Shown in pieces: positions 22,911 through 56,938 of a stretch of DNA of 64,000 nt; the stretch's first letter is position 1; every line of letters starts with the position of its first letter. The position numbers were made by a program, and so were the translations under genes. The DNA comes from the human T2T-CHM13v2.0 reference genome, Homo sapiens: NCBI RefSeq assembly GCF_009914755.1, contig NC_060931.1, one strand, 5' to 3'. The notes under the pieces are model-generated. The model searched no databases. It worked only from the letters and a program-made list of their open reading frames with translations, and was not told the origin of the DNA.

Positions 22911-24532
22911 AGAACCAAACTGCACGAAAATCTTAAACTCTTTTCAGTAATCACATAAATGATGGCTATTATTATTATTTTTAGTAGTATTTGACTATCC
23001 ATTTATTCCATGACCATTGCCCGGGTTTCCAATGCTCTTCAGACTTATTTTTCTTTGATCACACGTCAGTGAGTCCATGGCCAAAATGAGTCTATCTTTG
23101 GCCCTACTCTCACATTCAGATATATTCTACACTTTCACCTGAACTTGGGATACTCCATGGATTGCTGGTCCTACCTCAATTATTTTTCCTGCTTGTTCTC
23201 TGCCTTATTTGTCCTTCTACTTCCTGAGCCCCTAATTTATTCATGTGAAAAAGCAAAATTGCACAATGTAAATTCTGTGAGAACAGCTTCACTCTAAGGT
23301 AAATTATAATGTCTTGTATTATTCAGGAAATGACTGGATGTTGATGTTCATATATATCATCTACTAAAATGATAGAATGAATGCTTTAGACACTCTAGAA
23401 ATAGATTGTTCTATTTTTCTCTACTTGACTGATGATTTCTTGGGATCAGAACAGATATTCACAATATTAAAACCACAGTAAATGGTTTTGTGGTTGAAAC
23501 CAATGACAAATAATTTTTTGTCTTTGAATCTGATGTCCTCCACATGTACTCTCTGGGATGGAAATTTCTTTAGTGGTACTGTCAAAAGAAGCATCAGAGA
23601 GACATTAGACAGAGATGACCTTTCCATGAATTTTAAGAGGAAGACTCTGATATGGTTTGGCTTTGTGTCCCCACTGAAATCTCATCTTGAATTGTAATCC
23701 TCAGGTGTCAAGGGAAGAACCTGGTGGGAGGTGATTGGATCATGGGGGCGGTTTCCCCCATGCTATTCTCATGATAGTGAGTGAGTTCTCACGAGAGCTG
23801 ATGGTTTTAAAGTGTTGTACTTTCTGGTGCTCTCTCTCTCTCTCTCTCTCTCTTGCCTGCCCCATGTAAGAAGTGCCTTGCTTCCCCTTCACCTTCCACC
23901 ATGATTGTAAGTTTCCTGAGGCCTCCCCAGCCATGCAGAACTATGAGTCAATTAAACCTCCTTTCTTTATAAATACTCAGTCTCTGGTGGTATTCTTCAT
24001 AGCAGTGTGAAAACAGACTAATACAGAGAATTGGTACCGAGGTAGTGGGGCACTGCTATAAGAATGTGGAAGCAACTTTGGAAATGGGTAACAGGCAGAG
24101 GGTGGAACAGTTTGGAAGGCTCACACGAATACAAGAGGATGAATGAAAGTTTGGAACTTCCTAGAGACTTGTTGAATGGTTTCGACCAAAATGCTGATAG
24201 TGATATAAATAATGAAGTCCAGGCTGAGATGGTCTCAGATGGAGATGAGTAACCTATTGGGAACTGGAGTAAAGGTCACTCTTACTATGCTTTAGCAAAG
24301 AGACTGGCAGCATTTTTTTCTTTTTTTTATATACTTTCAGTTTTAGGGTACATGTGCAAATTGTGCAGGTTAGTTACATAAGTATACATCTGCCATGCTG
24401 GTGTGCTGCACCCACTAACTCGTCATCTAGCATTAGGTATATCTCCCGATGCTATCCCTCCCCCCTCCCCCCACCCCACAACAGTCCCCAGAGTGTGATA
24501 TTCCCCTACCTGTGTCCATGTGATCTCATTGT

Positions 24533-27500
24533 TCAGTTCCCACCTATGAGTGAGAATATGCGGTGTTTGGTTTTTTGTTCTTGCGATAGTTTACTGAGAA
24601 GGATGATTTCCAATTTCATCCATGTCCCTACAAAGGACACGAACTCATCATTTTTTATGGCTGCATAGTATTCCATGGTGTATATGTGCCACATTTTCTT
24701 AATCCAGTCTATCATTGTTGGACATTTGGGTTGGTTCCAAGTCTTCGCTATTGTGAATAGTACCGCAATAAACATACGTGTGCATGTGTCTTTATAGCAG
24801 CATGATTTATAGTCCTTTGGGTATATACCCAGTAATGGGATGGCTGGGTCAAATGGTATTTCCAGTTCTAGATCCCTGAGGAATCGCCACACTGACTTCC
24901 ACAATGGTTGAACTAGTTGACAGTCCCACCAACAGTGTAAAAGTGTTCCTATTTCTCCACATCCTCTCCAGCACCTGTTGTTTCCTGACTTTTTAATGAT
25001 TGCCATTCTAACTGGTGTGAGATGGTATCTCATTGTGGTTTTGATTTGCATTTGTCTGATGGCCAGTGATGATGAGCATTTTTTCATGTGTCTTTTGGCT
25101 GCATAAATGTCTTCTTTTGAGAAGTGTCTGTTAATATCCTTTGCCCACTTTTTGATGGGGTTGTTTGTTTTTTTCTTGTAAATTTGTTTGAGTTCATTGT
25201 AGGTTCTGGATATTAGCCCTTTGTCAGATGAGTAGGTTGCGAAAATTTTCTCCCATTTTGTAGGTTGCCTGTTCATTCTGATGGTAGTTTCTTTTGCTGT
25301 GCAGAAGCTCTTTAGTTTAATTAGATCCCATTTGTCACTTTTGGCTTTTGTTGCCATTGCTTTTGGTGTTTTAGACCTGAAGTCCTTGCCCATGCCTATG
25401 TCCTGAATGGTAATGCCTAGGTTTTCTTCTAGGGTTTTTATGGTTTTGGGTCTAACGTTTAAGTCTTTAATCCATCTTGAATTAATTTTTGTGTAAGGTG
25501 TAAGGAAGGGATTCAGTTTCAGCTTTCTACATAAGGCTAGCCAGTTTTCCCAGCACCATTTATTAAATAGGGAATCCTTTCCCCATTGCTTGTTTTTCTC
25601 AGGTTTGTCAAAGATCAGATAGTTGTAGATATGCAGCATTATTTCTGAGGGCTCTGTTCTGTTCCATTGATCTATATCTCTGTTTTGGTACCAGTACCAT
25701 GCTGTTTTGGTTACTGTATCCTTATAGTATAGTTTGAAGTCAGGTAGCGTGATGCCTCCAGCTTTGTTCTTTTGGCTTAGGATTGACTTGGCGATGCGGG
25801 CTCTTTTTTGGTTCCATATGAACTTTAAAGTAGTTTTTTCCAATTCTGTGAAGAAAGTCATTGGTAGCTTGATGGGGATGGCACTGAATCTATAAATTAC
25901 CTTGGGCAGTATGGCCATTTTCACGATATAGATTCTTTCTACCCATGAGCATGGAATGTTCTTCCATTTGTTTGTATCCTCTTTTATTTCCTTGAGCCGT
26001 GGTTTGTAGTTCTGCTTGAAGAGGTCCTTCACATCCCTTGTAAGTTGGATTCCTAGGTATTTTATTCTCTTTGAAGCAATTGTGAATGGGAGTTCACTCA
26101 TGATTTGGCTCTCTGTTTGTCTGTTATTGGTGTATAAGAATGCTTGTGATTTTTGTACATTGATTTTGTATCCTGAGACTTTGCTGAAGTTGCTTATCAG
26201 CTTAAGGTGGTTTTGGGCTGAGACAATGGGGTTTTCTAGATATACAATCATGTCATCTGCAAACAGGGACAATTTGATTTCCTCTTTTCCTAATTGAATA
26301 CCCTTTATTTCCTTCTCCTGCCTAATTGCCCTGGCCAGAACTTCCAACACTATGTTGAATAGGAGTGGTGATAGAGGTTTCAAAGTTTTCCTTTGAAAAC
26401 TGTCTTGTGCCAGTTTTTCAAAGGGAATGCTTCCAGTTTTTGCCCATTCAGTATGATATTGGCTGTGGGTTTGTCATAGATAGCTCTTATTAATTTGAGA
26501 TACGTCCCATCAATACCTAATTTATTGAGAGTTTTTAGTATGAAGCGTTGTTGAATTTTGTCAAAGGCCTTTTCTGCATCTATTGAGATAATCGTGTGGT
26601 TTTTGTCTTTGATTCTGTTTATATGCTGGATTACATTTATTGATTTGTGTATATTGAACCAGCCTTGCATCCCAGGGATGAAGCCCACTTGATCATGGTG
26701 GATAAGCTTTTTGATGTGCTGCTGGATTCGGTTTGCCAGTATTTTATTGAGGATTTTTGCATCAATGTTCATCAAGGATATTGGTCTAAAATTCTTTTTG
26801 GTTGTGTCTCTGCCTGGCTTTTATATCAGCATGATGCTGGCCTCAGAAAATGAGTTAGGGAGGATTCCCTCTTTTTCTATTGCTTGGAATAGTTTCAGAA
26901 GGAATGGTACCAGTTCCTCCTTGTACCTCTGGTAGAATTCGGCTGTGAATCCATCTGGTCCTGGACTCTTTTTGGTTGGTAAGCTATTGATTATTGCCAC
27001 AATTTCAGAGCCTGTTATTGGTCTATTCAGAGATTCAACTTCTTCCTGGTTTAGTCTTGGGAGGGTGTATGTGTCAAGGAATTTATCCATTTCTTCTAGA
27101 TTTTCTAGGTTATTTGTGTAGATGTTTGTAGTATTCTCTGATGGTAGTTTGTATTTCCATGGGATCGGTGGTGATATCCCCTTTATCATTTTTTGTTGCG
27201 TCTATTTGATTCTTCTCTCTTTTCTTACTAGTCTTGCTAGCGGTGTATCAATTTTGTTGATCCTTTCAAAAAACCAGCTCCTGGATTCATTGATTTTTTG
27301 AAGGGTTTTTTGTGTCTCTATTTCCTTCAGTTCTGCTCTAATTTTAGTTATTTCTTGCCTCCTGCTAGCTTTTGAATGTGTTTGCTCTTGCTTTTCTAGT
27401 TCTTTTAATTGTGATGTTAGGGTGTCAATTTTGGATCTTTCCTGCTTTCTCTTGTGGGCATTTAGTGCTATAAGTTTCCCTCTACACACTGCTTTGAATG

Positions 27501-55579: not shown

Positions 55580-56938
55580 GAATTGAACAATGAGAACACA
55601 TGGACACAGGAAGGGGAACATCACACTCTGGGGACTGTTGTGGGGTTGGGGGAGTGGGGAGGGATAGCATTAGGAGATATACCTAATGCTGCATGACAAG
55701 TTAATGGGTGCAGCACACCAGCATGGCACATGTATACATATGTAACTAACCTGCACATTGTGCACATGTACCCTAAAACTTAAAAGTATAATAATAATTA
55801 AAAAAAATAAAAAATAAAAATGCTACTGTTACGTGAAAAAAAAAAAAGATTGTAATTTACCATTAAATATTCTAAATACAAAAGCTCGTTTTCCTCTACA
55901 TCTGCATGACATTAGAAATTTAATACTCCAGCAAGGAGGTCAGAAAATAGGACAGGGCGCTGCCCCTGCACACCTCAACATGCTTCTCCTGTATGTGTAG
56001 CAACAACTTTTATATACCACCACTTTTCTGTTTCAAAAAACATTGAAGAGAAATGTAAGTGCTGCCAAAGTAATAAGTTAACAACTATGGGAAAAATTTA
56101 AGGGAAAAGAATCTTAAAAAATTAAAAAATCATTCTAGAATTCAGCTGAAGCATGTGGAAGTTTAAATTGTCCATTCTGCATTACTGAGATGTATTGGGA
56201 ACCAATACCTTTTACCACAGAGAATTATAGTAACTTTTAGATAAGAAAAAAGAAACACAAACATTTTACCTGAATAATAAAACTGTAACTGCTCCTTTTA
56301 TAAATGCTATATTGGATTTTGATGAATCTTTGTATAATCGTATATAAATTTTCAAGAACAAAATTCTAAATGTTCATATTATTAATGTTATCATAAAATA
56401 CTCATTATGTACTTTGTAATCTTACATTTTTCAAACAAAAATTAGTTCTGACTAAGATACAGAGTATAGCACATGCACTCAATGATACAACCCTAAATGT
56501 GCTCATTAAGACATTTTATTCCATGAAAGCCGTGACTGACCAGACTGATATCACCTCAAAAAAATAAAAATAACCCACCTTCCTAGGAATTAAACTGGGA
56601 ATGAATAGCAAGGGGTGATGAAGAATGGTCAGCTTCCATCACCTAATCTTTGAGAGAAGGCAAAGTGTAGAGCAAAGATACAGAAATCTGAATGAGGAGG
56701 AGGTTCCTAAATCCAAATTCAACCCCAGAATATACTTGTCAGGTTGGTAAGAAATCAGAAGTTAGCCTGCTCCATTCTCAAGGTTTGTGCCACTCCAGTA
56801 CACTACTATTTACCACTCTTCAATTAGCTTTATCTGAGTGCCACAAATATTTGCATGGACATGTGCAGTGTTCTGTGGTTAAAGAGATAAATATGGCATG
56901 GTCCCTGTTTCCAGTGGTACTTTTAAATACATATAATT

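What the first reader, a model, noticed from the sequence alone, without database searches (positions are those of the whole stretch)
24317..55847. Three independently inserted L1s form a patchwork of shared private mutations (local concerted evolution)
Seen: L1-A and L1-B have their own intact TSDs and L1PA2-type 3'UTRs. L1-C has an older-type 3'UTR, ORF1 N-terminus and long 5'UTR. Non-consensus changes are nonetheless shared in every combination. All three: KQNYK (26011/40971/54101), SFSEAS (26841/41671/53265), IRMNR (25271/40231/54841). A+C: ENNFQ, SEEEIK, the HAKF ORF1 end, IQHE and several frameshifts. B+C: TLASQ, SCCSKD and a 5'UTR block. A+B: FEQNL, SMRQK and ERIS. Inference: repeated non-allelic gene conversion among copies 4-30 kb apart, helped by the inverted orientation of L1-C. 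Consensus residues are recalled.
Basis: partly seen in the sequence, partly recalled or inferred. Interest (0 to 1): 0.85.

Follow-up and report, generated by a model that had tools for sequence, protein, structure and literature searches.

The report
Neighbouring L1 copies exchanged sequence
Three old, dead L1 retrotransposons lying within 32 kb of each other on human chromosome 7 have copied stretches of sequence into one another by gene conversion, a known process seen here in a clear example.

Summary

The main feature is not scattered alleles but three contiguous tracts:
- A and C differ at 7 of 2567 aligned bases over about 2.5 kb of ORF2. Either copy is only 94-98% identical to B or to 42 other genomic copies there.
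- A and C also share a patchier 627-bp block.
- B and C share a 313-bp block in the 5'UTR.

Each tract carries alleles absent from the panel. Exact 27-mers spanning such clusters occur genome-wide only in the two partners. Trees switch topology between tracts. Both partner pairs are inverted. C is the likely donor of the 2.5-kb tract.

The "all three" and A+B alleles are not private. Their 27-mers occur 62, 208 and 9 times genome-wide. Even so, every local pair shares more rare alleles than any of 406 control pairs.

Verdict: real non-allelic gene conversion among clustered L1s, a new example of a known process. No ape orthologues, other haplotypes or raw reads could be checked.

The parts
24317..30353 (-). 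L1-A. Full length, short 5'UTR type, flanked by the TSD GACTGGCAGCATTTT (24302-24316 and 30354-30368).
39270..45172 (-). L1-B. Full length, short 5'UTR type, flanked by the TSD TTAACCATTCTTT (39257-39269 and 45173-45185). It has its own 120-bp ORF2 deletion at the junction 41560/41561.
49643..55847 (+). L1-C. Older type: 128 extra 5'UTR bases (50407-50534), 5' end 12 nt shorter, and a compound A-tail with a 15-nt non-A insert at 55821-55835. No TSD of 8 bp or more was found.
24725..27291 (-). Tract 1 in A, the probable recipient. These are the widest bounds; the bounds set by shared rare alleles are 24760-27245.
   Evidence: A and C show 2560 matches, 7 mismatches and 3 gap columns here. 23 of 90 A=C≠B sites have no carrier among 16-42 panel copies.
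52824..55393 (+). Tract 1 in C, the probable donor. The narrow bounds are 52870-55358.
   Evidence: In the tree for this tract, D is the nearest non-local copy.
28048..28674 (-). Tract 2 in A, covering the end of ORF1, the inter-ORF spacer and the start of ORF2. It holds the ENNFQ, SEEEIK, HAKF and IQHE alleles.
   Evidence: 5 A-C differences in 627 columns. 7 shared alleles have 0 of 29 panel carriers. C matches at 99% against 97% for the next best genomic copy.
51441..52067 (+). Tract 2 in C.
44752..45064 (-). The B-C tract in B (5'UTR).
   Evidence: 2 B-C differences in 313 columns. 7 shared non-CpG alleles have 0 of 28-29 panel carriers. C matches at 99% against 95% for the next best copy. 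The cluster 27-mer occurs only in B and C genome-wide.
49739..50051 (+). The B-C tract in C (5'UTR).
26372..26399 (-). Complex change in ORF2 of A with a net gain of 16 bp, which shifts the frame. The same change lies in C at 53719-53746.
   Evidence: It is absent from B and from the other panel copies shown at those columns. The 27-mer occurs only 3 times genome-wide: in A, C and D.
27122..27227 (-). Two deletions shared by A and C: 4 bp at junction 27226/27227 and 2 bp at junction 27122/27123. In C they lie at 52888/52889 and 52992/52993.
   Evidence: D has the same 2-bp deletion and a similar 4-bp gap.

Best explanation
A, B and C are separately inserted, long-dead L1 copies. After insertion, homologous repair copied stretches from one copy into another without crossing over. 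This is non-allelic (interlocus) gene conversion.

At least three events are visible:
1. About 2.5 kb of ORF2 was copied between C and A, most likely from C to A. It carried C's frameshifting indels and more than 20 of C's own substitutions into A. By the 7 differences that remain it is the most recent event, roughly 1-3 million years old under assumed neutral rates.
2. An older or patchier 0.6-kb A-C exchange lies around the ORF1/ORF2 junction.
3. A 0.3-kb B-C exchange lies in the 5'UTR. Its direction is unknown.

Both partner pairs are head to head (inverted). Between A and C there are 19 kb from 5' end to 5' end, and between B and C 4.5 kb.

**Shown:** the mosaic identity, shared alleles unique in the genome to the partners, the incongruent trees and the non-reciprocity.

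**Inferred:** the repair mechanism (a double-strand break repaired from the neighbouring copy), a germline origin, the dates, and C as the donor.

The scattered rare alleles shared by A-B and by all three may be remnants of further short patches, or may reflect a shared source lineage.
For: **1. Mosaic identity.**
- A-C identity is 99.65-99.8% over columns 3207-5784 (7 mismatches against 2560 matches).
- Elsewhere A-C identity is 92-97%.
- In the same columns A and C are 94-98% identical to B and to 42 unlinked copies.

**2. Runs of variable sites.** The longest run without an A-C difference is 28 sites, and without a B-C difference 14 sites. None of 20000 shuffles reached either value.

**3. 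Shared derived alleles.**
- Tract 1: 23 of 90 A=C≠B sites have no carrier among 16-42 panel copies, and only 1 of the 23 is in CpG context. 44 of the 90 are rare (10% or less).
- Tract 2: 7 of 23 sites have no carrier among 29 copies.
- B-C tract: 7 of 26 sites have no carrier among 28-29 copies.
- Control stretches between the tracts give 0 of 5 and 0 of 17.

**4. Whole-genome exact counts.**
- A 27-mer over three tract-1 alleles occurs 2 times, in A and C.
- A 27-mer over three B=C alleles occurs 2 times, in B and C.
- The 16-bp insertion 27-mer occurs 3 times, in A, C and D.

**5. Best-hit searches.**
- For B's 281-bp 5'UTR block, C scores 99% and the next best of 40 scored copies (4364 candidates) scores 95%.
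- For A's 271-bp block, C scores 99% and the next scores 97%.
- For A's 3' half, C scores 98% and the next scores 96%.

**6. Trees (FastTree, 32 sequences).**
- Outside the tracts A pairs with B (support 0.954) and C pairs with D (0.974).
- In tract 1 A pairs with C (support 1.0, distance 0.0025).
- In tract 2 A pairs with C (0.996).
- In the 5'UTR tract B pairs with C (0.997).

**7. Independent insertion.** A, B and D each have their own TSDs.

**8. Direction C to A.**
- D, an unlinked L1 1.06 Mb away that groups with C outside the tracts, shares the 16-bp insertion and the 2-bp deletion.
- D is the nearest non-local copy in tract 1.
- The density of shared rare alleles in tract 1 is 44 in 2576 columns, or 1.7%. 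This matches C's own rare-allele density outside it (43 in 2287, 1.9%) and not A's (15 in 2287, 0.66%).
Against: - Only one assembly was examined. No raw reads, other human haplotypes or ape orthologues were available, so the pre-conversion state was never seen and an assembly error is excluded only by argument.
- The panel is small (16-42 copies per site) and consists of best matches, not a random sample.
- Only three allele clusters were counted genome-wide as unique.
- Alleles with no carrier in the panel are not always private. The KQNYK, IRMNR and 1382T/1401A 27-mers occur 62, 208 and 9 times.
- C has no recognisable TSD. Its independent insertion therefore rests on its different structure and its kinship to D.
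- Tract 2 keeps 5 differences in 627 bp, and tract 1 holds two internal sites (columns 5645 and 5713) that do not fit a clean single copy.
- A-B shows no tract.
- The dates rest on recalled mutation rates and on very few differences.
Confidence: 0.88

Rival explanations
1. The shared alleles are inherited from common source elements, that is, from L1 sublineages. No exchange between the resident copies took place.
For: - Some shared alleles exist elsewhere. Their 27-mers occur 62 times (KQNYK), 208 times (IRMNR) and 9 times (1382T/1401A).
- C and D share 13 alleles absent from the other panel copies simply by belonging to one lineage.
- A and B group together outside the tracts with long private branches, as sibling insertions would.
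Against: - It cannot explain the tracts. The cluster 27-mers are unique to the partner pairs genome-wide.
- The best other copies are only 95-97% identical where the partners are 99% or more.
- The kinship switches along the element.
- A and C belong to different structural types (128-bp 5'UTR segment, 3'UTR).
- Among the listed hits on chromosomes 1-7, no copy other than A, B and C carries both KQNYK and IRMNR (only 100 of the 208 IRMNR hits were listed).
- None of the 7 other carriers of the 1382T/1401A 27-mer has A=B's 615G or 1260C.
Confidence: 0.05
2. Assembly or polishing artefact. Reads from one L1 were used to build or correct another, which created false identity.
For: Nothing positive was found here. 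It cannot be excluded directly, because no reads or second assembly were available. The tracts lie in high-copy repeats, where polishing is hardest.
Against: - Mismapping would draw on thousands of similar L1s genome-wide and would import common alleles. It would not import rare alleles found only in a neighbour 5-30 kb away.
- The tracts are flanked on both sides, within the same element, by sequence 3-7% diverged. Long accurate reads would anchor there; this is an inference from general knowledge of how the assembly was made.
- Tract 1 still holds 7 substitutions and a 3-bp indel between the copies.
Confidence: 0.03
3. A was born chimeric, by template switching between two L1 RNAs during reverse transcription. 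Alternatively, two inversions with crossovers inside A and C swapped segments.
For: Inverted L1 pairs can mediate inversions, and chimeric L1 insertions are known. Both points are recalled, not tested here.
Against: - A is A-type at both ends and C-type in the middle, twice over. That would need several switches.
- The tract is 99.7% identical to C while A has accumulated about 0.7% or more of its own rare alleles elsewhere. The transfer is therefore much younger than A's insertion.
- Reciprocal crossovers swap segments but do not make two copies identical.
- A's and B's TSDs are intact on both sides, so there is no net inversion with a breakpoint in them.
Confidence: 0.03

Closest known systems
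Interlocus gene conversion between human segmental duplications (Vollger et al. 2023, PMC10172114; abstract and passages read)
   Same: One paralogue is copied non-reciprocally into another on the same chromosome. The event is recognised by runs of donor-type variants. The 2.5-kb tract is within the range reported there (average 6.26 kbp).
   Different: The paralogues here are not duplications of one locus. They are separately inserted retrotransposon copies only 95-97% identical, and such high-copy repeats fall outside the segmental-duplication maps. The events here look fixed or old rather than polymorphic, which was not tested.
Gene conversion between neighbouring Alu elements (Aleshin and Zhi 2010; Kass et al. 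1995), as summarised in Fawcett and Innan 2019 (PMC6598467; passages read)
   Same: Independent retroelement insertions are homogenised by a nearby copy. That review states that rates are elevated for copies within 10 kb, and that the result is incongruence between subfamily type and sequence.
   Different: These elements are 6 kb long, not 300 bp. The tracts are up to 2.5 kb and cover only part of the element, and three elements are involved in at least three events.
L1 gene conversion in mouse (Burton et al. [quoted passage not shown]
   Same: It makes the same claim, that a resident L1 can be overwritten by another L1.
   Different: The paper was not read, so its details are unknown to me. 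It concerns a different species and locus.
Arm-to-arm conversion in large inverted repeats and palindromes, such as those of the Y chromosome (recalled, not checked here)
   Same: Inverted orientation on one chromatid, with conversion and no loss of the spacer.
   Different: Those arms are duplications kept at more than 99.9% identity along their whole length. Here only parts of diverged, independently inserted repeats are homogenised.

Membership tests
Non-allelic (interlocus) gene conversion | The partners are paralogous sequences at different loci with separate origins. | tested here: met
   A and B each have their own TSDs. C differs in structure (128-bp 5'UTR segment, 5' truncation, 3'UTR type) and groups with the unlinked copy D. 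C's own TSD was not found.
Non-allelic (interlocus) gene conversion | A bounded segment has much higher identity than its flanks (mosaic). | tested here: met
   In tract 1 A-C identity is 99.7%, against 92-97% outside it. Run-length permutation reached the observed value in 0 of 20000 shuffles for A-C and for B-C.
Non-allelic (interlocus) gene conversion | Phylogenetic incongruence between the segment and the rest of the element. | tested here: met
   Outside the tracts the pairs are A+B and C+D. In tracts 1 and 2 the pair is A+C, and in the 5'UTR tract it is B+C. Supports are 0.95-1.0.
Non-allelic (interlocus) gene conversion | Derived variants of one copy are present in the partner and nowhere else. 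| tested here: met
   27-mer counts are 2 (A, C) and 2 (B, C) genome-wide. In the three tracts 23, 7 and 7 alleles have no panel carrier. Only three clusters were counted genome-wide.
Non-allelic (interlocus) gene conversion | The transfer is non-reciprocal: both copies end up with the same sequence rather than swapped sequence. | tested here: met
   Both partners carry the same alleles and indels in each tract.
Non-allelic (interlocus) gene conversion | The unconverted state is seen in an outgroup species or another haplotype. | not testable with these tools
   Only the T2T-CHM13 genome is held. No ape or pangenome sequence was available.
L1PA subfamilies (L1PA2/L1PA3 for A and B, older for C) | Presence or absence of the roughly 129-bp 5'UTR segment, which per bioRxiv 10.1101/429563 (passages read) was deleted in L1PA3 and is absent from L1PA2/L1HS. 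| tested here: met
   A and B lack 128 columns that C and D have. This places A and B with the deleted (younger) form and C with the undeleted (older) form. It does not name the subfamily.
L1PA subfamilies (L1PA2/L1PA3 for A and B, older for C) | Diagnostic positions against subfamily consensus sequences. | not testable with these tools
   No L1 consensus library was on hand, and none was built or typed. By divergence (nearest copies at tree distance about 0.022-0.026 for A and B and about 0.047 for C), C is clearly older.

The most novel reading that the evidence does not exclude
The three L1s behave as a small unit of concerted evolution. Besides the three clear tracts, many short patches have passed among all three copies over about 10 million years, including the direct pair A-B.

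If so, L1 copies lying within tens of kilobases of each other would routinely exchange sequence. That would have three consequences:
- It would blur L1 subfamily assignment and age estimates.
- It would move 5'UTR regulatory variants between copies.
- It would mark inverted L1 pairs such as B/C and A/C as sites prone to recurrent inversion.
Probability: 0.35. Interest if true: 0.5.

Novelty: new member of a known kind. Interest (0 to 1): 0.35.

Why it matters
- It is a clean, well-bounded case of dead L1 copies overwriting each other. One event pasted a broken ORF2 segment of an older element into a younger one.
- Such events make an element look like a mixture of subfamilies. They distort divergence-based ages and create long near-identical inverted repeats, here 2.5 kb at 99.7% about 25-30 kb apart, which can promote inversions.
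- The biology is expected from work on Alu elements and segmental duplications, so the value is as a worked example and as a prompt for a genome-wide census of L1 pairs by distance and orientation. No gene function is touched: the site lies inside introns of the transcribed pseudogene DPY19L1P1, according to the gene table supplied with the finding.

Tried and rejected
1. **Alignment breaks.** With the whole of A as query, 28 of 41 rows ended at query 3017-3056. I first read this as marking the edge of tract 1. It falls at half the 6036-base query and is probably an effect of how the tool cuts queries, so I do not use it as evidence.
2. **D as a segmental-duplication paralogue.** The copy at chr7:31.76 Mb has unrelated flanks and its own TSD, so this is rejected.
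3. **'No carrier in the panel' as proof of privacy.** Rejected, which gave 208, 62 and 9 copies.
4. **A recent A-B conversion tract around FEQNL/ERIS.** Not supported: B ties with 8 other copies at 98%, and A-B identity there is 96.55%, against 96.45% for an unlinked copy.
5. **A source sublineage carrying the A=B alleles together.** The 7 other carriers of the 1382T/1401A 27-mer are heterogeneous (84-96% identical to each other). None has 615G (0 of 7). None has 1260C (5 have A and 2 have a gap).
6. **TSD search for C.** No shared word of 8 bases or more between its flanks.
8. **Literature.** The searches for 'L1 gene conversion' phrases and for 'gene conversion' with 'L1PA' found no paper describing this locus or a genome-wide study of L1-L1 conversion in humans. 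That covers only the open-access library searched, and no supplements were read.
9. **Subfamily naming and GENECONV-type software.** Not run. A run-length permutation and region-wise trees were used instead.

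
Full report
**What is there**

The window holds three full-length L1 elements.
- A is 24317-30353 on the minus strand, with a 15-bp target-site duplication (TSD).
- B is 39270-45172 on the minus strand, with a 13-bp TSD.
- C is about 49643-55847 on the plus strand.

C differs from A and B in several ways:
- It has 128 extra 5'UTR bases (50407-50534).
- It starts 12 nt later.
- It has a compound A-tail.
- No TSD of 8 bp or more was found.

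A and B face C head to head. B's 5' end lies 4.5 kb from C's 5' end, and A's lies 19 kb from it.

**Three-way alignment**

In a MAFFT alignment of 6241 columns, overall identity is 95.8% for A-B, 97.1% for A-C and 95.3% for B-C. The differences are not spread evenly.
- Columns 3208-5783 (ORF2 3' half): A and C show 2560 matches, 7 mismatches and one 3-bp indel. B differs from each at 91-96 sites there.
- Columns 1825-2451: A and C differ at 5 sites. The flanking 755 columns hold 32 differences.
- Columns 121-433 (5'UTR): B and C differ at 2 sites, while A differs from both at 26.

The longest runs of variable sites without an A-C difference (28 sites) or a B-C difference (14 sites) were reached by 0 of 20000 shuffles. 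The A-B run of 12 was reached by 3 of 20000.

**Comparison with the rest of the genome**

The human assembly is searchable. I assembled two sets of comparison copies:
- 28 copies that best match A, plus one further copy D (chr7:31757333-31763487), covering L1 columns from about 15 to 4650 or more.
- 13 copies that best match A's 3' half.

Inside the 2.5-kb tract, A and C are 99.3-100% identical to each other per 500-column window. They are only 93.6-98.6% identical to any of these copies or to B.

Counting alleles column by column gives the following:

| Region | Sites shared by the pair only | No panel carrier | Panel size |
|---|---|---|---|
| Tract 1 (A=C≠B) | 90 | 23 (1 in CpG context) | 16-42 |
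| Tract 2 (A=C≠B) | 23 | 7 | 29 |
| B-C tract (B=C≠A) | 26 | 7 (none CpG) | 28-29 |
| Between tracts (control) | 5 | 0 | 29-31 |
| ORF1 region (control) | 17 | 0 | 29 |

In tract 1, 44 of the 90 shared alleles are rare (10% or less), 25 sites are B-private and 21 are polymorphic.

A and C also share a 4-bp deletion, a 2-bp deletion and a complex insertion with a net gain of 16 bp. B and nearly all panel copies lack these.

**Whole-genome exact counts**

- A 27-mer over three neighbouring tract-1 alleles occurs twice, in A and C.
- A 27-mer over three B=C 5'UTR alleles occurs twice, in B and C.
- The insertion 27-mer occurs three times, in A, C and D.

Best-match searches agree with this:
- For B's 281-bp block, C scores 99% and the next copy 95%.
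- For A's 271-bp block, C scores 99% and the next 97%.
- For A's 3' half, C scores 98% and the next 96%.

In these searches only 40 of several thousand candidates are scored each time, so the counts of near relatives are lower bounds.

**Trees**

FastTree was run on A, B, C and the 29-copy panel.

| Region | Grouping | Support |
|---|---|---|
| Outside the tracts | A with B | 0.954 |
| Outside the tracts | C with D | 0.974 |
| Tract 1 | A with C (distance 0.0025) | 1.0 |
| Tract 2 | A with C (distance 0.0095) | 0.996 |
| 5'UTR tract | B with C (distance 0.0069) | 0.997 |

This is the incongruence expected from gene conversion.

**Direction of the large tract**

D is an independent insertion with its own TSD and unrelated flanks. 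Three lines of evidence point to C as the donor:
- D groups with C outside the tracts and shares 24 of C's 94 unique alleles, the most of any panel copy.
- D carries the 16-bp insertion and the 2-bp deletion, and it is the nearest non-local copy in tract 1.
- The density of shared rare alleles in tract 1 is 1.7%. This matches C's own density elsewhere (1.9%) and not A's (0.66%).

So the tract is of C's lineage, and C is the likely donor and A the recipient.

With 7 differences in 2567 sites, and recalled neutral rates of 0.5-1.2 x 10^-9 per site per year, the event would be roughly 1-3 million years old. The two smaller tracts (5 differences in 627 and 2 in 313) would be older, but the errors are wide.

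**The scattered alleles**

- The KQNYK 27-mer occurs 62 times.
- The IRMNR 27-mer occurs 208 times.
- The SFSEAS allele is also in D.
- The 27-mer with the ERIS allele occurs 9 times.
- B is no closer to A than 8 other copies in the 191 bp around FEQNL/ERIS.

Yet the excess of sharing is real.
- Over columns 15-4650, A-B share 7, B-C 12 and A-C 27 alleles absent from all 29 panel copies.
- Control pairs share 0.28 on average and 4 at most (406 pairs). B shares at most 2 with any single panel copy.
- The triple A, B, C shares 4 such alleles, against at most 2 in 3654 control triples.
- No hit on chromosomes 1-7 other than A, B and C carries both KQNYK and IRMNR (only 100 of the 208 IRMNR hits were listed).
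- The 7 other carriers of the 1382T/1401A 27-mer are a mixed lot and lack A=B's 615G and 1260C.

These scattered alleles may be relics of short conversion patches. For A-B they may instead mark two insertions from one rare source. I cannot decide between these readings with the searches available.

**Alternatives**

- A source sublineage explains none of the tracts.
- An assembly or polishing artefact is unlikely. It would import common alleles from anywhere in the genome, not rare alleles of a neighbour. No reads or second assembly could be checked, however.
- A chimeric birth of A, or double inversion, does not fit. The transfer is recent and non-reciprocal, and the TSDs are intact.

**Context**

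- Conversion between neighbouring Alu elements, with higher rates below 10 kb, is described in the passages of PMC6598467 that I read.
- Interlocus conversion in segmental duplications averages 6.26 kbp (PMC10172114, passages read).
- An L1 case in mouse appears only as a reference-list entry.
- My searches of the open library found no description of this locus and no human genome-wide L1-L1 study.

This is therefore a new, clear member of a known kind, with moderate interest.

Noticed in passing
L001+L002 (G000:C7:31757333-31763487), compared with window 53719-53746: An unlinked full-length L1 (D), 1.06 Mb away and with its own TSD AACAGTTAAAGAA, is C's closest relative. It is the only other copy in the genome with the frameshifting 16-bp complex insertion, which contains a small inverted repeat. 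Two copies sharing an ORF2-breaking change suggests mobilisation in trans from a defective source, or an old exchange between C and D.
   Followed up: partly
window 29941-30136 (A 5'UTR, alignment columns 234-429): A has 9 substitutions here that no panel copy carries, a density of about 4.5% against about 0.66% elsewhere in A. The cluster overlaps the stretch where B and C were homogenised. The cause is unknown. It could be a patch from some diverged copy, or clustered mutation.
   Followed up: no
window 27292-30353 and 42126-45172 (A and B outside the tracts): A and B group as sisters (support 0.954) with long private branches. They share 615G, 1260C and 1401A, which 29 panel copies lack. 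Two siblings from a rare source lying 9 kb apart would be an odd coincidence. Old short conversion patches are the alternative.
   Followed up: partly
window 41560/41561 (B): B has its own 120-bp deletion in ORF2 (alignment columns 3773-3892). A, C and the panel copies shown do not have it.
   Followed up: no
window 29490-30080, 44337-45338, 49404-49907: The RefSeq 'enhancer' features in the supplied table lie on the 5'UTRs of A, B and C. The B-C conversion tract (44752-45064 and 49739-50051) falls inside or next to them, so conversion has moved variants within annotated regulatory sequence.
   Followed up: no
window 55808-55847 and 49630-49650 (ends of C): C has no TSD of 8 bp or more. Its 5' end is 12 nt short, and a 15-nt non-A stretch (55821-55835) lies between two A-runs. 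This may be a short 3' transduction or a later change in the flank.
   Followed up: partly
window 39032-39250 and 35669-37952: Fragments of much older L1s (78-87% identical to A) lie just beside B, and B seems to have inserted into or next to one of them. They take no part in the exchanges.
   Followed up: no
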